Below are positions 9,800 through 61,516 of a stretch of DNA of 64,000 nucleotides, piece after piece. This DNA comes from Stegostoma tigrinum (taxonomy: Eukaryota), in the NCBI RefSeq assembly GCF_030684315.1, contig NC_081367.1, positions 31,850,792 to 31,914,791 on the forward strand. The letters run 5' to 3'. Position 1 is the stretch's first letter; each line of letters begins with the position of its first letter. The translations under genes and the position numbers were made by a program. Below the pieces are notes generated by a model that searched no databases, had not been told where the DNA came from, and saw only the letters and a program-made list of their open reading frames with translations.

Positions 9800-11788
9800 T
9801 GGCCATTCCTCCCTCTTCACTGGGTCAAAATTCTGATAATCCCCAATCACCATCACGATGTGAACAAAATAGGCTGCAACAGTTCAAGAAGGCAGTCCAC
9901 TGTTGCTTTCTGCAGGGCCATTTCAGGTAGGCAATAAATGTTAACCTTGTCAATGAAGTCCATATCTCACCAGCGAAACAAAATGATGGAACAACATTTG
10001 TAAATTGTCCCAAAATTGAACTGAAAGTTTAAAATGCAGCTTTGAATCATCAACATTATAGCTTAAAATTTCTTGGAATTACATTTGGAAAACTTAAGAA
10101 AATTGATATTTTTAATCAAATACAATCACAATCAATATATAAGATGTTGATTTGTCTGTAACAGCAACTTTTAAAAGGCATTTTCTACTATAGTTGTTCA
10201 AATTTATAATGGTTCTTGTGCATGATACACAATCACCTATGCCGCCCTACTCTGAATGTGAATTTATCATTCTGGGGAACATAAATCCTTCAGACTTGGC
10301 ATCGATATCCATTAATTGAACTATAGGAACACTTATTTATCTCGAATATCATGCACATGAGTTTTTTTACAACACTGAAAGCTTGCATACATTTAAACTG
10401 ACGCTCTCCTTTGCTGTCTATTGTTATAAATATTGGTTTTCTTCATTAGCAGTTTTTTTTTAATCCCACCTTCATCTGACATGCAACCTAATTCGCATCC
10501 TGATCCTTATCTCATGTGTCTGTCACTTTAGCTTTGGGATGTTACCAGGTAACAGACCAGTTTGGCCAGTTCTCGAGTCCTTTGTCTTTCTCATGGATTC
10601 AGATCAATTTAAAGACTTTACTCAATGCACTGAAGCTCATGCTGCCAACAAGCAGACTGTAAGATAGACACAACATGTCAGAAAGGTAAGACCTATAAAA
10701 TAGTCTGTTTAACAGACAACTTGCAGCCAGACCACATTGGGTTAGACAAAAATATCTTTTACATAAAGCTGTCAAAAGTAAAAATTAACATTGTGCTTAA
10801 TTTGTTAGTTGAAATAATTGTAAGTTGTAAGTTTGTGGAAATACCAACTTGTATACAGCTTGTAAGATATGTATATAATAGTATTATGTTACACAAATGT
10901 GATCCTGTTTCTCATTAAAGAAGTATGTCTACTTCATGGCTCAATTACATCTGCTCATGTATCCGGTTACTAAGGCTGCCTTAAGAGCAAAATTGGGGAT
11001 TAGTTGTAACCTTATCTTAAAAAAAAACTTCTAACCTACAGTGCACAAACCACTGCCTTGGGGGTATCAGGAATATCATTTTAGATTATGTGCATAGACC
11101 AAACCTACAATTTTCCCATTACTGCGTTAATTTTGTTCTCAATGATGCACAGTTGTATGATGGCCATTTTTTGAAATCATCTTGTTTCAGGCTAAGCCAG
11201 TGACTAGCGAGTGGAATCAGTGGTGATGGAATGAGATTTGTGGACGGAGTGTTCAATCAAAGACAATCAGTCTTTTCAATTGGAGGAATTTGAGTCTCCC
11301 CAGGAAGAGAGAGCAGAGACAATGGAGGGGTTAATATAGGTTAAAAAGAAAAGCAGTAGAGCAGGATGGAGAGAGATCAAGGTGGACAAGAAAAAAAAGT
11401 GTAGTGTATCATCATGACTAGACTAAAATATGGTATTACTTATGACTCTACTTAGGGCTTATTTCAGTGCTGTGGAAACCTGTTTTCAGCGTGACATTTG
11501 GAGACCAACATGTTGATGAAGTTTTGCGGAAAAAAAAGGAGGTTGAAAATGGGGTGGTACTTCGCAACCAGACAGAGAGGCATCGAGCATGGTTTTAATT
11601 CAGGAGGGAAACAATGGCAGAAATTTGAAAATAATAGTGCCAGTTGAAAATGAAATGTGTACAATGTTGGTTACCAAGCATACTATGATGGGATAATGGG
11701 AACTGCAGATGCTGGAGAATCCAAGATAATAAAATGTGAGGCTGGATGAACACAGCAGGCCAAGCAGCATCTCAGGAGCACAAAAGCT

Positions 11789-11816
11789 GACGTTTCGGGC
11801 CTAGACCCTTCATCAG
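11789..11816 (-). ncRNA. Minimal hammerhead ribozyme motif (intact core), left arm of the palindrome
   Basis: Reverse complement reads CTGATGAAGGGTCTAGGCCCGAAACGTC. Confidence 0.78.
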
Positions 11817-12549
11817 AGAGGGGGATGGGGTGAGGGTTCTGGAATAAATAGGGAGAGAGGGGGAGGCGGACCGAAGATGGAGAGAAAAGAAGATAGGTGG
11901 AGAGAGTATAGGTGGGAGGTAGGGAGGGGATAGGTCAGTCCAGGGAAGACGGACAGGTCAAGGGGGTGGGATGAGGTTAGTAGGTAGATGGGGGTGTGGC
12001 TTGGGGTGGGAGGAAGGGATGGGTGAGAGGAAGAACAGGTTAGGGAGGCAGAGACAGGTTGGACTGGTTTTGGGATGCAGTGGGTGGAGGGGAAGAATTG
12101 GGCTGGTTGTGTGGTGCAGTGGGGGGAGGGGACGAACTGGGCTGGTTTAGGGATGCGGTGGGGGAAGGGGAGATTTTGAAACTGTTTCAAAATCTCCCCT
12201 TCCCCCACCGCATCCCTAAACCAGCCCAGTTCGTCCCCTCCCCCAACTGCACCACACAACCAGCCCAATTCTTCCCCTCCACCCACTGCATCCCAAAACC
12301 AGTCCAACCTGTCTCTGCCTCCCTAACCTGTTCTTCCTCTCACCCATCCCTTCCTCCCACCCCAAGCCACACCCCCATCTACCTACTAACCTCATCCCAC
12401 CCCCTTGACCTGTCTGTCTTCCCTGGACTCACCTATCCCCTCCCTACCTCCCACCTATACTCTCTCCACCTATCTTCTTTTCTCTCCATCTTCGGTCCGC
12501 CTCCCCCTCTCTCCCTATTTATTCCAGAACCCTCACCCCATCCCCCTCT

Positions 12550-12577
12550 CTGATGAAGGGTCTAGGCCCGAAACATC
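12550..12577 (+). ncRNA. Minimal hammerhead ribozyme motif, right arm of the palindrome (GAAACATC variant)
   Basis: CTGATGAAGGGTCTAGGCCCGAAACATC; a CpG-type transition breaks the ACGT palindrome. Confidence 0.65.
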
Positions 12578-13592
12578 AGCTTTTGTGCTCCTGAGATGCT
12601 GCTTGGCCTGCTGTGTTCATCCAGCCTCACATTTTATTATACTATGATGGGAGTTGACAGGGAATTAAAATGAGTGAGCATAGAATGCGTCTTCTGGACA
12701 ACATAAGCTGAGAACAGATGAGGGAAGAGAAATTTAAAAAAGAGCTTGGGCAGGGAAAATCCACAGGAAAGGTTTAGCCTAGCGAACAAGGGAAATGGGT
12801 GGGATACAGCAGGACTAGTTGAATGATAATGAAATCCATGAGCTCTTCACATAGACCAGAGATGGGAATGGAGAGGCTGGGAAAGAGAAGTTGAAGAAGA
12901 TGCATGATAATTGAGCAAAGCAGACACAATACTTCTTTTGCATTCCAGGAGGACTCAGAAATACAGAGCAATTTTAACAGAGATCATTCGTGCTTGAATT
13001 ACAAAACAGCATCACTTCAATTGGGTCTTATGGTGCAGAGTTGCACAGTCCTGAACAGAGGTGACCAATGAAATCCAGGAAGTTAGATTTAGTACAGTTC
13101 ATGCTAAATTGTCAACCTTTTGTTGTGTGGGTTTACAAAATATGGCATTTCACAATTCAAAGACCCTTTGGATACTTTTGTCAAGATTATAGTGCCATGA
13201 CTTCTCTTAACATTGATCGGAATGGGTGAGACAGCTTAATGTTTCATCATTCAAAATCCATCCATTTACACAGGGTTAAAATCACACCTATTATAGCCTG
13301 ATTATCTTTAGAATACAGTTCTTCGCAAGGTGAATTAAATAATTCTGAATTTTGTCAGGTACGTAAGTAGAATCAAATACGTTGAAAGTAATTATCAACT
13401 ATAAGCCTTTAACAAACTGTTATTGTATTTCAAGTTCTTCAGGTGTCAATATAAGCTCTGGCAGCTTACCTAAAACGCAATCTTCACCGTGGTTAATCGT
13501 GACCGAACCATGCATTTCACTGCCAGTCACCTGCCGAAGCAAAGAAAGTTCAAAACAAAACCATGATTCAGGAATATTGTCTCCTGTGAGTA

Positions 13593-13793
13593 TCAGAAAT
13601 AATGGGAACTGCAGATGCTGGAGAACCCAAGATAACAAAGTGTGAAGCTGGATGAACACAGCAGGCCAAGCAGCATCTCAGGAGCACAAAAGCTAATGTT
13701 TCTGATGAAGGGTCTAGGCCCGAAATGTCAGCTTTTGTGCTCCTGAGATGCTGCTTGGCCTGCTGTGTTCATCCAGCCTCACATTTTGTTATC
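13593..13793. mobile_element. Miniature palindromic Penelope-like insertion with a hammerhead core in the loop
   Basis: About 74-bp inverted arms (13629-13702 / 13722-13795); TTGTCTCCTGTGAGTA repeated at 13577-13592 and 13794-13809. Confidence 0.92.
13702..13729 (+). ncRNA. Hammerhead ribozyme motif (GAAATGTC variant)
   Basis: CTGATGAAGGGTCTAGGCCCGAAATGTC. Confidence 0.62.
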
Positions 13794-13954
13794 TTGTCTC
13801 CTGTGAGTAGTTGCCTTCTCATGTAGATATACTGTTCCTTCTTCCTGTTTATTTGATCAACAACGGAAAGGCCAAGAGTAAAAAGTAAGATTTGTTGAGT
13901 GGTTTTGCAGTGAGAATTAGGAGAAAAAATACATCAACCCATGTGGTCCACAAG

Positions 13955-25942: not shown

Positions 25943-26934
25943 TGTTGCGAAGTTGCAAAGTATTTATAGATTGGAAGGCAGGAAGTTATAATTTGTTGGT
26001 AAAAATGACAGTAGGGAAAAGCAGTGTTGGGGTCCCTTCAACTGATTTGTGTTTTGTCTGTGCATAGAAATTTTTAAAATGTAGGCATATGAGTAACTGG
26101 AGGGTGCAATAACAGAAAGTACTTCAAATAAAAACATTTGTAGCAAAAGGGCCTTGCGGGTGAAAGGCAAAGCCTCAGAATTGTTTGACATTTTGATGAC
26201 AAGTTCAAATTGAGTCAATCAACAAAGCCCTTAGAAACTAAAAATCTATCAAATTTAAACCTGATTGCATTGACAGCCTGAACCCAATAACATTGTGAGA
26301 ATTTGTTGCATCATCGGTGATATTTAAGAAAGTGTTTTTGAAAATTTGCAGAGAGAGTCAACTTTCATAAGACAATACCCTTTAGTTTCAGAGAAAGCCC
26401 ATCTGATTATAGTGTACCATGGTAGTTTAGCTAAAGGCCCTCACAGAAGCAATCATAGAAAGTCATCTGTAAAGGAAGGTCATCCTGAGAAAGGCTGGAA
26501 AAAGCAGGAGGTGCCAAACGACAGTCTCTGTGATTTTGGAGTGATTAAATTTTAATTTATTTTGTTCTTATCAATTGGATTTATTAAGCGTAACTTGTTC
26601 ATTTGAACAGTATTCCAGCAGAATTTGGTTTAATTAGGGAGTAGTTAGTATAAGGCGGGGGGGGGGGGGGGCGCAATTATTCAGTTTGTTAGTATGTCTT
26701 TTAATTTGTTCACTGTTAAGTTTAAATACATAAATTGTTACACATAATTTAAAAAATGGATCAGGGATTTCCTTTCCTTTAACCATTAATTTAACATATT
26801 ACAAGGGGAAAGGCGAGCTTCTTTGAATGTTTTGAGGGTACCTGTTAGAAGGGAACCTCCACTCCTGTAATAACAGATTGGGGTTTGTGTAGGTTTAAAT
26901 ATCAGAGGAGTTCGGGCATTCCCCCTCCTTAACA
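25943..26934. mobile_element. Putative solo LTR (about 990 bp)
   Basis: TGTT...AACA termini; flanked by TTTA/TTTG (4-bp TSD with 1 mismatch); cleanly interrupts the CR1 SKAF|DxVP motif; non-coding. Confidence 0.72.
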
Positions 26935-27192
26935 TTTGACAATGTTCCAATGCAACGAGAACTAGCCAGTTGGACACAAAATTGGCTCGAAGGTAGGAGA
27001 CAGAGGGTGGTAGTGAAGGGATGCTTTTCAGACCAGAAGCCTGTGACCAGTGGAGTGCCGCTGAGATCAATGCTGGGGCCATTGCTTTTTGTCATCTATA
27101 TAAATGATTTGGATGTGAATACAGGAGGTGTGGTTAGTAAATTTGCAGATGACACTAAAATTGATGGTGTCCTGGACAGTGAAGAAGGTTAC

Positions 27193-29474
27193 ATAGAACA
27201 TAGAACATTACAGCACAGTACAGGCCCTTCGGCCCGCGATGTTGTGCCGACCTGTCATACCAATCTGAAGCCCATCTAACCTACACTATTCCATGTACGT
27301 CCATATGCTTGTCCAATGACGACTTAAATATACTTAAAGTTGGCGAATCTACTATCGTTGCTGGCAAAGCGTTCCATTCCCTGACTACTCCCTGAGTAAA
27401 GAAACTACCTCTGACATCTGTCCGATACCTCTCAGCCCTCAATTTAAAGCTATGCCCCCTCGTGCTCGCCGTCACCATCCTAGGAAAAAGGCTCTCCCTA
27501 TCCACCCTATCTAACCCTCTGATTATTTTATATGTCTCAATTAAGTCACCTCTCAACCTTCTTCTCTCTAACGAAAACAGCCTCAAGCCCCTCAGCCTTT
27601 CCTCGTAAGACCTTCCCTCCATACCAGGCAACATCCTAGTAAATCTCCTCTGCACCCTTTCCAAAGCTTCCACATCCTTCTTATAATGCGGTGACCAGAA
27701 CTGTACGCAGTACTCCAAGTGCAGCCGCACCAGAGTTTTGTACAGCTGCAGCATAACCTCTTGGTTCCGGAACTCGATCCCTCTATTAATAAAAGCTAAA
27801 ACACTGTATGCCTTCTTAACAGCCCTGTCAACCAGGGTGGTAACTTGCAAGGATCTGTGTACATGGACACCGAGATCTCTCTGCTCATCTACACTACCAA
27901 GAATCTTTCCATTAGCCCAGTACTTTGCCTTCCGGTTACTCCTACCAAAGTGTATCACCTCACACTGGTCCGCATTAAACTCCATTTGCCACCTCTCAGC
28001 CCAGCTCTGCCGCTTTTCTATGTCTCTCTGTAACCTACAGCATCCTTCATCACTATCCACAACTCCACCAACCTTAGTGTCGTCTGCAAATTTATTAACC
28101 CATCCTTCTACGCCCTCATCCAGGTCATTTATAAAAATGACAAACAGCAGTGGACCCAACACCGAACCTTGCAGTACACCACTAGTAACTGGTCTCCAGG
28201 ATGAACATTTCCCATCAACTACCACCCTCTGTCTTCTTTCAGCAAGCCAATTTCTGATCCAAACTGCTATATCTCCCACAATCCCATTCCTCCGCATTTT
28301 GTACAATAGTCTACTGTGGGGAACCTTATCGAACGCCTTGCTGAAATCCATATACACCACATCAACCGGTTTACTCTAATCTACCTGTTTGCTCACCTTC
28401 TCAAAGAACTCAATGAGGTTTGTGAGGCACGACCTACCCTTCACAAAACCATGCTGACTATCCCTAATCAAATTATTCTTTTCTAGATGATTATAAATCC
28501 TATCTCTTATGAGCCTTTTCCAGCACTTTACCAACAATTGAGGTAAGACTCACTGGTCTGTAATTACCAGGGTAGTCTCTACTCCCCATCTTGGACAGGG
28601 GAACCACATTTGCTATCCTCCAGTCGTCTGGCCCTATTCCTGTAGACAATGACGAGTTAAAGATCAATGCCAAAGGCTCGGCAATCTCCTCCCTGGCTTC
28701 CCAGAGGATCCTAGGATAAATCCCATCCGTCCCAGGGGACTTAGCTATCTTCACACTCTGTAGGATTTCTAATACCTCTTCCTTGTGAACCTCAATCCCA
28801 CCCAGTCTAGTAGCCTGTATCTCAGTATTCTCCTTGACAACATTGTCGTTTTCTAGAGTGAATACTGTCGAAAAATATTCATTTAGTGCTTCCCCTATCT
28901 CCTCTGACTCCGCACACAGTTTCCCACTACTATCCTTGATTGGCCCTAATCTTACTCTCATCATTCTTTTATTCCTTAAATACCTATAGAAAACCTTAGT
29001 GTTTACCCTGATCCTATCCACCAACAAATTCACGTGTCTCCTCCTGGCTCTTCTGAGCTCTCTCTTTAGGTCTTTACTGGCTACCTTGTAACCCTCCAGT
29101 GCCCTAGCCGAGCCTTCACATCTCATCCTAACATAAGCCTTCTTTTTCCTCTTGACCAGAGGTTTCACTTCTTTCATAAGCCATGGCTCCCGCACTCTAC
29201 AGCTTCCTCCCTGCCTGACAGGTACATACTTATCTAGGACACATAGGAGCTTTTCCTTGAATAAGCTCCACATTTCTAATGTGCCCATCCCCTGCAGTTT
29301 CCTTCCCCATCCTATGCTCCATAAATCTTGTCTAATCTCATCGTAATTGCCTTTTCCCCAGCTATAACTCTTGCCCAGTGGTATACACTTATCACTTTCC
29401 ATCACTAAAGTAAACATAACAGAATTGTGATCACAATCACCAAAATAACAGAATTGTGATCGCTATCACCAAAA
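27193..29474 (-). mobile_element. Young 5'-truncated CR1/HER1-like LINE (reverse transcriptase)
   Basis: ORFs 28500..29417 (KSPGTDGIYPRIL, NYRPVSLTS) and 27281..28360 (YMDFSKAFDKV, QGSVLGPLLF, KFADDTK); one frameshift and one stop lie between them; (TTCTATG)n 3' tail at about 27193-27208. Confidence 0.96.
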
Positions 29475-36262: not shown

Positions 36263-37257
36263 GTAGGGAATACTTTATTTAATTACTAACCCATAGCTGG
36301 TCCATTTATTCAGGTTTAAACATCTCCTCTTTCATAGCTCCAGTACTTATGTGGAAATATCTGAGGATTTTTGTTACCTGTTCTACGTGTTGCTATTATA
36401 TGAATTTTTTTTTCTGTTTCTGGCTCCCTTTTTATTTTGCCCTGCTGTTAACCTTTAGTCATTTTATGTATGGGGCAGAAAGGTCAAAGAAGTCCTGAGG
36501 GTGTCTGCTTCTTGACTTGATGAAATCCACCATCTCCGTTTCCAAATGCATGGAATCACATGCTAGATATCTCCAATTGCACACTATTGATGCAATACTT
36601 AGTGCTTCCCTGGGTGAACATGCAGCACGATTGTGTTCTGTCCACTGACAATTCCATGATTGTTTGGAACTGCCTAGTTAGCAGTGATAACCAAAATGCA
36701 ATTTTACATAACATACTTACACTTTTAGATATTTATCAGTGGTGATTTACTTCTGGTGAGGGATGGTTACATTTATCCTGGGCTTGGCCTGGATAAATTT
36801 GTACAGGCCTCTGATTTAAATTACTTCAATCACTAGCTTTGCCTTTAAGACATTTTGAATATTACTGGCATCTCAACAGTCATCCTCAATCCTGTAGAAA
36901 TTGCATGCATTGTTAACCACAGGAGCTTCTATCAGAATTATTTCAAATATCTTCCAATTGCTTTGTCTACGTTCGGGATAAACCTTCTTCACAAACCTCT
37001 TTGTTTCACTTCTGTGTCATGTGCTAATGTTCTTTACTGAAAAGCTATCCATTCTGGTTTCAGTTAAAAAAGAGCAAACGATTTAATTGCCCTAACCTTA
37101 GTGCCTTGAACTTACAATTTTTCTATTTCTGCATTTACCTCAATCTTTTGTCATTGAGAAATTTAAGCTACTATTGCCTTGATTACTCAAATTTACAGAC
37201 AGTTTGGCAGTCTTTCAGATTCAAACTGAAAATGATATGTTTATTCTGTTTCTGCAG

Positions 37258-37455
37258 ATGTAAAGAACTTAATCTCAATAAGAATCATTTAACGTCTTTT
37301 GAACAACTGCCGAAAATTCCCCAAATTCAACATTTATCAGTAACTGAAAACAACATAGTGACATTAAGAGGACTCAGCAAACTAAGAGAAACACCAATAG
37401 AATCACTAACTTTGAAAAGGAACCCTTGTCAATTTCAGGATAAGTACAGACCCAA
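37258..37455 (+). CDS. Uncharacterised LRR protein exon with three LRRs, [65 protein letters not shown]
   Basis: tttctgcag acceptor, gtacat donor; phase 2-2; SDS22-like LRRs followed by NPC...YR, the start of an LRRcap. Confidence 0.88.
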
Positions 37456-38696
37456 GTACATGCAATTTAATTTTTCTTCAAAAATCTTAATTCTAAATAT
37501 TCAATCACTCTTTGTTTAAATGTGAGGGTCATTTTTAAATTATGATTGTGCAGAAACCTCTAACACAATAATTGTCAAAGTTTGGGGAAATATTACAAAT
37601 TATTGCCAATAATTGTCTTCCAAATCTACACATCACATGAAGCAAGTTAAAAAGAAAGCAGAAAACGTGTTGAATTTGAAGTGTTCAGAAACACCATGTA
37701 GAATTTTGGTTCATGATTATAATGCAGTTTCTTTTGTTTTAGAAGCTATTTAAGACAACATGCGCTCTCAGATCATGCTGTTCAACTGCATCTCCATGTA
37801 TCAATATGTCATCCATATGACGTATGGCACCATAAAGATCTTTAAAAAATATTTTACAAAGTCTATTGATAAATCTCTGAAATAAGACAATCTTGAATGG
37901 TAATCTGTTCAACTAAGTTTCCCAAATGGAGTTAAGAATACAGTAAGCAATCTCGATTGCTCATCCAGTGGCATCTGTGGAATCCACGATTTGCATGTCG
38001 TTTTGTGAAAATTCAGGGTTTGGATAGTTTAAGTAAATTGTTTTCAACCATATACATAGGATGGATTCTCTCATCATCATCTTGTTGAGCTGTGTAAAGT
38101 CAACAAAAATTCCAATAGCGCAATTAATCTTAGAAACAGTAATAATGCTCAGCTACCGTTAGTTTGGATTTGTGACTAGGGAAATGATGCCTATCCTTGT
38201 TATTTCTGGAAGTTGTTTCTGAACTTGCTTTGTTAAGACAGGTAGAATCTTCCTGGGTATGCTGTTATATAAGGATTTAGAGCCTTTCTTCAGAGTAGTG
38301 CTGCGTTCAGTATGCAGGTTTCATTACATTTTAAATAAACTCTTAAACAACTTTTACTGTTTGACCTCTTCCACAATTTGATTAAGATTGAAGTTAAGGC
38401 ATGTATTCCGACTCCGGAATGAGAATTCTTGATTGAGAACTAAGTGTAGGTTTTCTACAATTTAGTATCCCCTATATGAGAAAGTTTTTTGTAGCATACC
38501 ATTCACCTTGAGAGTTATACCTTCTAGACCACATGGTTGCAATGCTATTAGCTGTACAATGTTTCTTTAACCTAAATGATAATATTGTGACATTTGACCC
38601 ATTGTCTAACATAAAAATTATGTGATGACCATTGACATGAATGTCAGCTTACCTAAACGTGAAGTCTGGAACACCTATTTTTCCCAGGAACATTTT

Positions 38697-47702: not shown

Positions 47703-48688
47703 CCCACCCCTGTCTGCTTTCCGGAGAGACCACTCTCTCCGTGACTCCCTTGTTCGCTCCACACTGCCCTCCAACCCCACCACACCCGGCACCTTCCCCT
47801 GCAACCGCAGGAAATGCTACACTTGTCCCCACACCTCCTCCCTCACCCCCATCCCAGGCCCCAAGATGACATTCCACATTAAGCAGAGGTTCACCTGCAC
47901 ATCTGCCAATGTGGTATACTGCATCCACTGTACCCGGTGCGGCTTTCTCTACACTGGGGAAACCAAGCGGAGGCTTGGGGACCGCTTTGCAGAACACCTC
48001 CGCTCAGTTCGCAACAAACAACTGCACCTCCCAGTCGCAAACCATTTCCACTCCCCCTCCCATTCTCTTGATGACATGTCCATCATGGGCCTCCTGCACT
48101 GCCACAATGATGCCACCCGAAGGTTGCAGGAACAGCAACTCATATTCCGCCTGGGAACCCTGCAGCCATATGGTATCAATGTGGACTTCACCAGTTTCAA
48201 AATCTCCCCTTCCCCCACTGCATCCCTCAACCAGCCCAGTTCATCCCCTCCCCCCACTGCACCACACAACCAGCCCAGCTCTTCCCCCCCACCCACTGCA
48301 TCCCAAAACCAGTCCAACCTGTCTCTGCCTCCCTAACCGGTTCTTCCTCTCACCCATCCCTTCCTCCCACCCCAAGCCGCACCCCCAGCTACCTACTAAC
48401 CTCATCCCACCTCCTTGACCTGTCCGTCTTCCCTGGACTGACCTATCCCCTCCCTACCTCCCCACCTACACCCTCTCCACCTATCTTCTTTACTCTCCAT
48501 CTTCGGTCCGCCTCCCCCTCTCTCCCTATTTATTCCAGTTCCCTCCCCCCATCCCCCTCTCTGATGAAGGGTCTAGGCCCGAAACGTCAGCTTTTGTGCT
48601 CCTGAGATGCTGCTTGGCCTGCTGTGTTCATCCAGCCTCACATTTTATTATCTTGGAATCTCCAGCATCTGCAGTTCCCATTATCTCT
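47703..48688 (+). mobile_element. Penelope-like element (Neptune-type), 5'-truncated: GIY-YIG endonuclease plus 3' pLTR
   Basis: ORF 47698..48336 has the Cys-rich linker CNRRKCYTCPH and NVVYCIHC..CGFLYTGETKRRLGDRFAEH; CTAATGCC repeated at 47695-47702 and 48687-48694 (TSD); inserted into an older minus-strand CR1. Confidence 0.93.
48561..48588 (+). ncRNA. Minimal hammerhead ribozyme motif in the Penelope pLTR (intact core)
   Basis: CTGATGA-A-GGGT(CTAG)GCCC-GAAACGTC: both core boxes, stem II, palindromic ACGT stem III and a GUC cleavage triplet; stem I is short. Confidence 0.8.
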
Positions 48689-53938: not shown

Positions 53939-54338
53939 CTGGGAAGGAAAACTGATAAGTAATAACTAAGAAAAAGCATCGCACTGCAAGTTAATCCAAA
54001 CGCTTTGTAGAGATTTTTAGAGGTATACTAGCACAGCGATTGGGGACAAAATACTCCTGATTAACCATGCAGAAAATATGAGCTAGCGTTTCTCCTACTG
54101 TTTAAATAATTCTGATTTTGTGTGCCAAGTTACTGCAGTCTTGAAGAGATGTGTTTCATCATATCACCTATACAGCCAAAAAATGATAGCATTTACTGCA
54201 AAGGTAGTATATTCCAGAAGCAGGTAGAACCATGTCTCAGTATGAATTGTATTATCTCCATTCTCATCACATTATCTGCTTGTCCTTCATTTAAATTGTT
54301 GTGGCGAACAAACTACGTTAAAAGAAAGCAGAGTTTAC

Positions 54339-54607
54339 CTGTATTTTCCATAATTCCTCTGTCTCTGGTGCAATTCTCCAGTATGTATCATCCATCATTG
54401 CAATCAACAGATTTAGCAGCAGGAGATATACAAACAGCATAAACATGACATAGGCAATATAGATGTTGTTGGGAGTGGGCTTGTTATAAGGAAGAGGAAT
54501 ATCCATCAATCCCATCATCAGCTCAAATATGGTGCGCAATGTCATTGAAAAATCCCTAAAATATGGATAATCTGCCAAATTCAGAGTCTGAAACATCAGG
54601 TAAAATG
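54339..54607 (-). CDS. TRPV6: TRPV5/6-like exon (pore helix, selectivity filter, S6, TRP box)
   Basis: ttctag / gtaaac splice sites; 269 nt, phase 1-0; AFYLMFQT...TIFELMMGLMDIP...LLNLLIAMMDDTYWRIA...EELWKIQ (ORF 54318..54680). Confidence 0.96.
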
Positions 54608-55214
54608 CTAGAAGAAAGAAATGAAACCCAAAGTCATTTGAAAAAGTATGGAGCGTATCAATTAAAACTTCCACAAGCATTGCAGTATCCTAAAAGTTAT
54701 TTTATTTATTCTTTTAGAACTGTGTATTGATTGCAGTAAGATATACCGAGGATCAACATTAATTAAAACTAGACTCAGATTACTTTGTCATGTACGTACC
54801 TAAAGTCAAAGTACTGATGATAGTAACTAACATCACATCATGTATATTTTAACATTTCAAGCAAAGATTCAAGAAAAAAATTAGTGGGAACATAAAAATA
54901 CACAATGGAAAATAGTTTATTATCAAAATTGGTTCAGGAGAGCAAGTGCTCCTCCCATCTCCACAATGTGGCTATGAGAGCATTATAATGAGCAAGCATT
55001 GGAGATGTGCATCTAAATCTGCAACTAAAATGACTATTCTTTTTAAATACAGAAGGTTGATGTACAGAGGAGCATTCATTCTCCTATTCTAAACTACTTC
55101 TTCACCAGCAGCAAAACTTTAACTTATAAAGCTAGACCAAAACATTTTCTCGCTGATATACTATTTTTATTAGAAAAAGTTACAAATGGATATTTATTCA
55201 GATGAAACACATAC

Positions 55215-59688: not shown

Positions 59689-61516
59689 TTCTTTAGGTAT
59701 ATAAAGGGCACAAGAGAAGCAAAAGTGGATATTAGACCACTGGAAAATGACAGTGGAGAGATGGTAGTGAGGAACAAGGAAATGGCTGAGGAACTGAATA
59801 ATTACTTTGTGTCAGTCTTCACGGTGAAAGACATGAGTGGAATCCTGAAAAATTGAGAGAGTCTGGGAGCAGAGCTGAGTATAGAGGCTATCACAAGAGA
59901 AAAAGTGCCAGTAAAACTGATTGGCCTGAAGGTGGTGGAATCACCTGGGCTAGATGGACTACACCCCAGAGTTCTAAACGAGATAGCTGAAGAGATAATG
60001 GAAGCGTTAGTGGTGATCTTTCAGGAATAAGCTACAGTCACGGAGGGTCACAGACAACTGGAATATCGCTAATGTGACACTCCTGTTTAAAAAGGGAGTA
60101 AGACAAAAGGTAGAAAATTAAAGGCCAATTAGCCTAACTTCAGTCATGGGTAAGATCTGAGTCCATTGTAAAGACGAGATTTCTGAATATTTGGAAATGT
60201 ATAGTAAAATAGGGCAAAATCAGCATCGTTTCATCGAGGGGAGGTCATGCCTGACAAATCTGTTAGAATTCTTTGAGGAAGTAATGAGCAGGGTGGACTA
60301 AGAACAGCCAATGGATGTTATCTACCTGGACTTCAAGAAGGCCTTTGATAAGGTGCCGCACATGAGGCTGCTGAGTAAGATAAGGGCCCATGGTGTTAGA
60401 GGCAAGGTGCTAGCATGGATAGATGATTGGCTGTCTGGCAGAAAGCAGAGAATGAGGATAAAGGGGTCTTTCTCAGGATGGCAGCCAGTGACAAGTGGTG
60501 TTCTGCAAGGTTCAATGTTGGGACCACAAATTTTCACTTTGTACATTAATGATCTAGATGAAGGAACTGTGGGCATTCTGGCTAAGTTTGCAGATGATAC
60601 AAAGATAGGTGGAGGGTCAGGTAGTATTGAGGAGGTGGTGAGGCTGCAGAAGGATTTGGACAGGTTAGGAGAGTGGGCAAAGAAGTGGCAGATGGAGTAC
60701 AACATGGCAAAGTGTGAGGACTTCACTTTGGTAAGAAGAATAAAAATGTGGACTATTTTCTAAATGGGGAGAAAATTCAGAAGTCTGAAGTGCAAAGAAG
60801 CTTAGGAGTTCTAGTCCAGGATTCTCTGAAGGTAAACTTACAGGTTGAGTCAGTAGTCAGGAAGGCAAGTGAAATGTTGGCATTCATTTTAAAATGACTT
60901 GAATATAAAAGCAGGGAGGTACTACTGAGGCTTTATGAGGCTGTGGTCAGGCCACATTTAGAGTATTGTATGCAGTTTTGGGCCCCATATCTCAGGAAGG
61001 GTGTACTAGCTATGGAGTGGGTTCGGACGAGATTCACAAGAATGGTCCCAGGAATAGAAAGCTTAATATATGAGGCACGTTTGAGGACTCTGGATCTATA
61101 CTCATTGGAGGTTAGAAGGATGAGGAGAGATCTAATTGAAACTTTTAGAATCATGAATGGTCTGAACAAAATGGATGTTGGAACTTGCCTCCATTGGTAG
61201 GAGAGTCTACGACCCGAGGACACAGCCTTAGAGTAAAGGGAAGACCTTTTAGAACTGAGATAAGCAGAAACTTCTACAGCCAGAGAGTAGTGAATTTATT
61301 GAATTTACTGACACAGAAGGCTGTGGAGGCCAGGTCAGTGAGTATATTTAAGATTGAGATAGATAAGTTCTTGATTATCAAGGGGATCCAGGGTTACGGG
61401 GACACAGCAGGAGAATGGGGCTGAGGAACTTATCAGCCATGATTGAATGGTGGAGCAGACTCGATGGGCCAAACCGCCTAATTTTTTCTCCTATGTGTTA
61501 TGGTCTTACGGTCTTA
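59689..61516 (+). mobile_element. 5'-truncated CR1 LINE in a TRPV intron (antisense to the gene)
   Basis: ORFs 60311, 60943 and 61185 (YLDFKKAFDKV, KFADDTK, VRPHLEYC) with frameshifts; TATGGTCT-like tail. Confidence 0.94.

What the first reader, a model, noticed from the sequence alone, without database searches (positions are those of the whole stretch)
11680..12652. 915-bp near-perfect palindrome with a 1-nt spacer made by a single Penelope-like insertion
Seen: 457-bp arms (11726-12182 / 12184-12640) mirror about T12183 with about 4 mismatches by eye. Both arms are 5'-truncated at the same point (..GTTTCAAAATC), each has a hammerhead, and a 14-bp TSD brackets the whole. Established: inverted pLTR arrangements occur in Penelope-like elements, and spacerless long palindromes are cruciform-prone and unstable. 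Inference: fold-back of the cDNA during integration; any read-through transcript would form about 450 bp of dsRNA (an siRNA or ADAR substrate) and mask the ribozyme.
Basis: partly seen in the sequence, partly recalled or inferred. Interest (0 to 1): 0.72.

Follow-up and report, generated by a model that had tools for sequence, protein, structure and literature searches.

The report
Mirror-image Penelope retrotransposon insertion
This 945-base mirror-image insertion of a Penelope-like retrotransposon is real, is absent from a related species and is one of many in this genome; it likely formed when both cut DNA ends copied the element's RNA and the two copies joined, an arrangement already described for this class.

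Summary
In detail: 457-bp arms, 4 mismatches, 1-nt spacer, 14-bp target-site duplication (TSD). A related species has the empty site, and two samples of this species hold both outer junctions, so it is one real insertion.

It is not rare. The family has 92,204 exact hits, 150 head-to-head insertions share this total length, and 19 of 44 clean ones examined have both 5' ends within 20 nt. The architecture (inverted 5'-truncated copy, one tail, TSD) is published for Penelope-like elements, and this scan noted it before in two other genomes.

Fold-back of one cDNA is not the best reading. In 89 of 100 insertions one arm is tailed and the other is not; the extra central bases sit on either arm (9:9); some loci join arms with different subfamily alleles. 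Priming from both target ends at two RNA start sites, then joining of the two cDNAs, fits better (inferred). The dsRNA, editing and instability claims are untested. The locus is ordinary; the genome-wide end rules are a useful handle on Penelope integration.

The parts
11680..11693 (+). Left copy of the 14-bp target-site duplication
   Evidence: single copy in the empty site of organism B
11694..11725 (-). 32-nt 'tail' extension, present on the left arm only
   Evidence: compare the 31-bp tail in PMC3846280 and the tail between two RT start sites in PMC11167929
11726..12182 (-). Left arm: 5'-truncated 3' end of the Penelope-like element on the minus strand (last ORF codons, 39-nt repeats, pLTR with hammerhead motif); the element match runs on to 12184
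   Evidence: 96% to the copy at 48192-48682
11788..11816 (-). Minimal hammerhead-like motif of the left arm, unmutated
   Evidence: compared by eye with the features described in PMC4209133; no Rfam hit at gathering score; activity untested
12183..12184 (.). Head-to-head junction: 1-nt spacer (12183) and 1-nt overlap of the two copies (12184)
   Evidence: identical junction at two other loci and a near-identical one at a third (L160)
12184..12640 (+). Right arm: same element segment on the plus strand, without tail; carries the derived base at all 4 arm differences
12550..12578 (+). Hammerhead-like motif of the right arm, with G-to-A at 12575
12639..12652 (+). Right copy of the 14-bp TSD; its first 2 bases overlap the end of the arm
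13577..13809 (.). Second, independent small head-to-head insertion of the same family with a 16-bp TSD (13577-13592, 13794-13809), also absent from organism B
   Evidence: (I14)

Best explanation
This is a single recent insertion of a Penelope-like retrotransposon, likely made by twin priming: both 3' ends of a staggered 14-nt cut would prime reverse transcription on the element's RNA, one at the tail end and one about 32 nt further in, and the two copies would then join head to head. Shown: one insertion, the TSD, the empty site, one tailed and one tail-less arm, both arms from the same source sequence, 5' ends within 2 nt. Inferred: the cut by the element's GIY-YIG nuclease, the use of two RNA start sites, a paired (probably dimeric) complex usually working on one RNA, and the join by an end-to-end template jump or end joining with 0-5 nt of overlap. 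The palindrome would be a by-product with no function.
For: Empty site and TSD. One tailed plus one tail-less arm in 47 of 50 insertions of about 945 bp and 42 of 50 of about 1.7 kb, found with internal symmetric motifs that did not select for tails. Non-inverted copies end at either site. In vitro, an anole Penelope-like protein cuts and extends both target strands, starts at two RNA sites that bound the tail, and is modelled as a dimer (PMC11167929). Extra central bases are on the tailed arm in 9 and on the tail-less arm in 9 of 19 near-symmetric cases, 1 unclassified. Zero-spacer junctions exist (L010, L016), which a direct hairpin cannot give. The 5' ends are coupled: 19 of 44 within 20 nt against about 5% for a flat spread (p 2e-13), and 6 of 40 at 1.7 kb (p 0.017), with no truncation hot spot at this position in unselected copies (1 of 86 at risk). 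The two arms here are sisters (100/96) and share variants seen in 1 of 85 and 1 of 102 other arms.
Against: For this locus alone fold-back is not excluded: the extra bases are on the tailed arm, as in all 4 loci with this junction, and one untemplated T would allow a 3-nt loop. PMC11167929 saw no difference in start site between the two strands, which does not by itself predict the strict one-tailed rule. The one-RNA version does not explain near-symmetric loci whose arms carry different subfamily alleles (L144, L159). The symmetric excess varies with length (5 of 20, 19 of 44, 6 of 40), so local sequence or later loss matters. The 5% null assumes a flat spread of offsets. Arm similarity could partly come from later gene conversion.
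Confidence: 0.55

Rival explanations
1. Twin priming plus fold-back: both target ends prime on RNA, one cDNA folds back and makes a sense strand, and the other cDNA anneals to that strand and is trimmed.
For: Explains the coupled 5' ends, extra bases on either arm, the one-tail rule, and near-symmetric loci with mixed alleles. A junction with a 3-nt inverted overlap and a 5-nt loop recurs at 4 of 16 loci.
Against: Spacers of 0-2 nt (this locus, L010, L016, L141) are too tight for a direct hairpin without added or trimmed bases. Most asymmetric insertions have offsets of hundreds of bases.
Confidence: 0.22
2. One reading: one tailed cDNA folds back, copies itself to 32 nt short of its start, and jumps to the other target end.
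For: At this locus the extra bases are on the tailed arm, the arms share near-private variants, and there is a 2-nt overlap with the TSD at the right end.
Against: Cannot make the 9 of 18 cases with extra bases on the tail-less arm, nor the 20 of 23 asymmetric cases in which the tail-less arm is the longer. Gives no reason for a fixed stop at the tail boundary, which non-inverted copies also use.
Confidence: 0.1
3. Self-priming on an antisense transcript makes a hairpin DNA intermediate that the nuclease cuts with a 30-40 nt stagger and inserts (proposed in PMC3846280; tail as a resolution product in PMC8557442).
For: Published hypothesis for head-to-head junction palindromes. It would give the one-tail rule directly.
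Against: A fixed stagger predicts extra bases on one arm class, not 9:9. In vitro RT start sites match both end types.
Confidence: 0.08
4. A pre-formed palindromic unit is copied as a whole, like a MITE.
For: The same junction occurs at 4 loci. One other pair (L091/L132) is 99% identical over 961 bp with different TSDs.
Against: The 4 same-junction loci differ by 10-19 bases while their own arms differ by 3-7, and they are scattered in the tree. L182/L183 share a junction but have the tail on opposite arms and are less alike than their own arms.
Confidence: 0.03
5. Assembly or fold-back read artefact, or two separate insertions side by side.
For: The centre is not bridged by a locus-specific contig. 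Long-read fold-back artefacts exist (recalled).
Against: Both outer junctions, in opposite orientation, are in short-read contigs of two samples; one TSD brackets the whole; the empty site exists; the arms differ at 4 bases and by the tail. 14 of 15 similar loci have their own TSD.
Confidence: 0.02

Closest known systems
Penelope-like element insertions with inverted pLTR, tail and TSD (Pen2a_Av of Adineta vaga, PMC3846280; general scheme in PMC8557442 Fig. 2)
   Same: Head-to-head inverted 5'-truncated copy, 31-32 nt tail on one end only, one TSD around the whole, palindrome at the inverted junction.
   Different: Here the two arms are co-extensive (457 bp, 1-nt spacer) with no ORF between them, the TSD is 14 bp against 8-10, and the family has tens of thousands of copies.
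PAc (Poseidon of Anolis carolinensis) in vitro system, PMC11167929
   Same: Two end types about one tail apart; extension of both target strands; hammerhead motif upstream of the tail; the tail continues into the ORF in tandem copies (L167).
   Different: This family has a CX4CXXC linker before the nuclease, the mark of Neptune/Nematis in PMC8557442, not of Poseidon. The in vitro work did not address joining of the two cDNAs.
LINE-1 twin priming (as described in bioRxiv 10.1101/2024.08.27.596794)
   Same: Both nicks prime on the RNA and the two cDNA ends are joined through short complementarity, inside one TSD.
   Different: In L1 the second primer anneals far upstream, so the inverted part is a different segment. 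Here both start at the same end about 32 nt apart, so the arms duplicate each other. There is no poly(A).
Minimal hammerhead motifs of metazoan PLEs, PMC4209133
   Same: Core boxes, one unpaired base before helix II, G-C closing pair, palindromic 15.2-16.2 pair; pairs of motifs 100-700 bp apart on opposite strands were already noted in Schistosoma.
   Different: Helix I is only about 2 bp here, and the right-arm copy has lost the 15.2-16.2 pair. Activity is untested; such motifs need dimers and cleave poorly in vitro.

Membership tests
Endonuclease-bearing Penelope-like element | Reverse transcriptase followed by a C-terminal GIY-YIG nuclease in one ORF | tested here: met
   On a relative, not on the truncated arms: L167 (97.9% to the reference copy) reads a YIDD motif and then GIY-YIG (Pfam PF01541, E 7.5e-4, 20.2 bits, below the 22.6 cut-off). 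Pfam RVT_1 did not hit; calling YIDD the RT motif is recalled. That copy is split over two frames.
Endonuclease-bearing Penelope-like element | Partial tandem (pLTR-ORF-pLTR) with an adjacent inverted 5'-truncated copy | tested here: met
   L167 shows pLTR, ORF, pLTR and an inverted copy upstream. 25 of 44 truncated copies have an inverted copy at their 5' end.
Endonuclease-bearing Penelope-like element | [quoted passage not shown] | tested here: met
   32 nt on the left arm only; 89 of 100 sister insertions have one tailed and one tail-less arm.
Endonuclease-bearing Penelope-like element | Target-site duplication | tested here: met
   14 bp, single in the empty site.
Endonuclease-bearing Penelope-like element | Minimal hammerhead motif in the pLTR | tested here: met
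   Sequence motif present, intact in the left arm and mutated in the right. Rfam gave no hammerhead hit.
Endonuclease-bearing Penelope-like element | Self-cleavage of the hammerhead | not testable with these tools
   Needs an RNA assay.
Neptune/Nematis clades | CX2-5CXXC motif between RT and nuclease | tested here: met
   CX4CXXC just before the GIY-YIG domain in P0001; definition from PMC8557442.
Neptune/Nematis clades | Placement in the RT phylogeny | not tested
   No reference RT set was fetched, so Neptune versus Nematis is open.
LINE-1-type twin-priming 5' inversion | Inverted part derives from a different, upstream segment; poly(A) end | tested here: not met
   The arms cover the same segment and there is no poly(A). 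It works like twin priming but is not that product.
MITE or other palindromic unit moved whole | Copies of the whole unit are closer to each other than the two arms are | tested here: not met
   Same-junction loci differ by 10-19 bases, own arms by 3-7.

The most novel reading that the evidence does not exclude
The thousands of inverted insertions in this genome record the unsolved second half of Penelope integration. A paired RT-nuclease complex primes both target strands at two fixed RNA sites about 32 nt apart, one site per strand, and joins the two cDNA ends, often at the same position, so that a retrotransposon routinely writes spacerless palindromes of 0.2 to over 1.7 kb into a vertebrate genome. 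The one-tail rule, the coupling of 5' ends and the 9:9 split were not found in my paper searches.
Probability: 0.45. Interest if true: 0.55.

Novelty: new member of a known kind. Interest (0 to 1): 0.24.

Why it matters
The locus itself matters little: it is one of many, and its architecture is in print. The family statistics matter more. How Penelope-like elements finish integration and why they leave inverted copies and tails is still open (PMC11167929, PMC8557442), and this genome offers thousands of end products that separate the models. It also shows a vertebrate genome carrying probably a thousand or more long, nearly spacerless palindromes (an extrapolation), which would allow a direct test of how fast such palindromes are lost and whether they feed dsRNA pathways.

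Tried and rejected
Rfam: no hit at gathering score in the window. The E-value scan gave 86 rows, almost all microRNA-precursor models below their gathering scores that respond to any long hairpin, and no hammerhead family; rejected as evidence for a microRNA. Central junction in reads: inconclusive. No empty-site contig appeared among the rows shown for X1 and X2, but 3019 joints were not shown, so fixation is not established. The 440-bp sample was noisy: 70 loci fetched, 7 dropped as reverse-strand duplicates, 1 not scored, and only 20 of 62 were simple two-arm junctions; the tail-to-tail control gave 70 matches against 183. A shared truncation hot spot as the cause of symmetric junctions was rejected. 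Whole-unit copying was rejected for this locus. The four-row clade of L085, L141, L144 and L154 in the tree is an alignment artefact of a 39-nt repeat unit missing from one arm. One search crashed and was rerun. The tail classes of the 1.7-kb set were wrong and were recounted from its printed values. The bacterial promoter scan is irrelevant here. No solved structure matched P0001. No earlier notes by place or by sequence. Paper searches for a shark-specific or twin-priming account found none; subscription papers and Repbase/Dfam entries were not searchable, and no supplements were read.

Full report
1. Observation. The inverted repeat is as described: arms 11726-12182 and 12184-12640, 457 nt, one base apart, with 4 mismatches. 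The longest sequence shared by the two flanks is a 14-mer at 11680-11693 and 12639-12652, found only there in the window. Between the two TSD copies lie 945 bp. The left arm has 32 nt more at its outer end (11694-11725). The left copy also runs 2 nt further at the centre, so the 5' ends are within 2 nt rather than identical. Both element ends overlap the TSD by 2 bases.

2. It is one real insertion. In two runs of a related species (organism B, X5 and X10) a single 3430-nt contig covers 10700-11679 and continues directly with 12639-13576, so the 959 bp of insertion plus one TSD copy are absent (table 8). In two samples of this species (X1, X2) contigs hold the left flank running into the tail and the right arm end running into the right flank, so the two ends are in opposite orientation independently of this assembly. 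The centre is not proven for this locus: a 54-nt contig matches 51 bases across it in X1 and X2, but its last 3 letters do not fit and other loci share the junction. The flanks differ from organism B at 54 and 65 letters over about 980 and 940 bases, while the arms differ at 4 of 457, so the insertion is much younger than the species split, assuming no conversion between arms.

3. What the element is. The arms are the last 490 nt of a repeat that also lies at 48192-48682 (96%) and elsewhere in the window. A near-complete relative (L167) has pLTR, ORF, pLTR and an adjacent inverted copy. Its ORF reads a YIDD motif, a CX4CXXC linker and a GIY-YIG domain (weak Pfam hit, below cut-off). That linker marks the Neptune and Nematis clades (PMC8557442, passages). 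Each arm has a minimal hammerhead-like motif; the right one has lost the C-G pair beside the cleavage triplet. Rfam does not model it.

4. It is common. A 25-mer at the tail boundary has 92,204 exact hits. Among the first 100 listed, 21 adjacent pairs within 4 kb are head to head, 1 tail to tail and 4 on the same strand. Sixteen loci have a junction in the same 12-nt window as this one, 3 of them identical to it, this locus included; 14 of the 15 examined have their own TSD. Head-to-head insertions of this total length number 150, and 57 fall in an equally narrow window near 1.7 kb. A motif about 430 nt from the tail has 48,703 hits; by my count from the listing, 17 head-to-head pairs within 2 kb and 1 tail-to-tail pair lie among the first 100. 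Extrapolated from that one chromosome end, there are about 8,000 inverted insertions with arms over 400 bp, and a thousand or more nearly spacerless. Of 90 unselected copies, 44 ended within 600 nt upstream of the motif, and 25 of these have an inverted copy at the 5' end.

5. End rules. I sampled insertions by fixed total length, with symmetric internal motifs, so that tails and junction position were not selected. At about 945 bp (first 50 of 150; this locus not among them): 47 have one tailed and one tail-less arm, 1 has two tails, 2 are unclassified; 39 have a TSD of 11 nt or more; 44 have a clean junction, and 19 of these have both 5' ends within 20 nt, 9 within 5 nt, against about 5% for a flat spread. 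At about 1.7 kb (50 of 57): 42 one-tailed, 2 tail-less on both sides, 6 unclassified; 6 of 40 clean ones near-symmetric. At about 440 bp: 5 of 20 clean ones, of 62 scored. Unselected copies show no truncation hot spot here (1 of 86 at risk), so the two 5' ends are coupled. In the near-symmetric 945-bp cases the extra central bases lie on the tailed arm in 9 and on the tail-less arm in 9. Arms of one locus differ at no more than 1 of 9 diagnostic columns in 18 of 19 near-symmetric and 18 of 25 asymmetric loci, against 17% of 4,902 cross-locus pairs. A minority (L089, L134, L144, L153, L159, among the 8 loci inspected) carry different subfamily alleles on the two arms. At this locus the arms are sisters and share near-private variants. 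The four loci with this junction are not copies of one another.

6. Mechanism. Read from each TSD inwards, both arms are antisense to the element, as two first-strand cDNAs primed from the two 3' ends of a staggered cut would be. One starts at the tail end and one 32 nt inside. An anole element cuts and extends both strands in vitro and starts at two sites that bound the tail (PMC11167929, main text and start of methods). I therefore favour twin priming by a paired complex, usually on one RNA, with the two cDNA ends then joined (0.55). A version in which one cDNA folds back and the other anneals to the new strand explains the same counts and handles mixed-allele symmetric loci better, but handles 0-2 nt spacers worse (0.22). 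Self-priming with nuclease resolution (0.08), whole-unit copying (0.03) and artefact (0.02) follow. All mechanistic steps are inferred from end products.

7. Consequences. The insertion folds into one long hairpin if transcribed (462 pairs), but no transcript was shown. A transcript of either strand carries one hammerhead motif in sense, and such motifs need dimers and cleave poorly in vitro (PMC4209133, results and discussion), so 'masking the ribozyme' has little to act on. Instability is untested: the locus has lasted long enough to gain 4 differences and is in two samples. The lower symmetric share at 1.7 kb than at 945 bp (p 0.008) could reflect loss, but the 440-bp share is also lower.

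8. What is known. PMC3846280 (parts 1-4 of 5 read) describes an inverted pLTR, a 31-bp tail on one end, a TSD and palindromes at head-to-head junctions, and proposes self-priming. PMC8557442 (passages) gives this as the general arrangement. PMC4209133 noted paired motifs on opposite strands 100-700 bp apart. L1 twin priming (bioRxiv 10.1101/2024.08.27.596794, passages) is the nearest mechanism; fold-back at L1 breaks (bioRxiv 10.1101/2024.12.14.628481, passages) concerns host DNA ends. Two earlier notes of this scan report the same pattern in other genomes; they agree with a reading I had already formed and are not independent support. My searches found no count of the one-tail rule or of end coupling, but they do not cover subscription papers, repeat databases or supplements.

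9. Verdict. A real, ordinary member of a known kind: interest 0.24. The most novel reading, that these insertions show twin priming at two fixed sites as the routine Penelope integration route, has probability 0.45 and would merit 0.55.

Noticed in passing
window 13577-13809: A second small head-to-head insertion of the same family, 16-bp TSD, absent from organism B. Its tail-less arm is the longer at the 5' end, the opposite of the main locus.
   Followed up: partly
L091 and L132 (G000:C2, about 59.339 and 59.347 Mb): Two inverted insertions 8.4 kb apart, in opposite orientation, 99% identical over 961 bp, with the same junction and the same 39-nt gap in the same arm but different TSDs. Possibly a palindromic unit copied whole once.
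   Followed up: partly
L182 and L183 (G000:C3, about 79.09 and 79.44 Mb): Same junction with a 3-nt overlap, but the tail is on opposite arms and the two loci are less alike than their own arms. The same junction can form twice independently.
   Followed up: yes
50 loci: Among asymmetric 945-bp insertions the tail-less arm is the longer in 20 of 23 (p 0.0005). The bias is weak at 1.7 kb (18 of 30) and reversed in the 440-bp set (6 of 15). Unexplained.
   Followed up: partly
L085, L141, L144, L154: One arm lacks one 39-nt tandem unit that the other has: slippage, or two templates.
   Followed up: partly
G000:C1 first 3 Mb: 8 of 21 head-to-head pairs have motif distances of 139-166 nt, so junctions cluster at the hammerhead region and give short palindromes.
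   Followed up: no
440-bp sample: Many insertions have about 50-300 nt between the arms; by eye several of these look like other parts of the element, pointing to extra template switches.
   Followed up: no
window 12184-12640: All 4 arm differences are derived in the right arm, two of them at CpG. Not significant (p about 0.125).
   Followed up: yes
window 54321-54689 (-): Exon of a TRPV5/6-like channel gene (best structure hits TRPV6, E 1e-19).
   Followed up: partly
window 37028-37516 (+): Exon of a leucine-rich-repeat gene, family not resolved. Whether either gene spans the palindrome was not determined.
   Followed up: partly
window 26899-28375 and 60302-60760: Reverse transcriptase fragments of another retrotransposon family (Pfam RVT_1), with an inverted pair at 26957-27188 / 28044-28275.
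   Followed up: no
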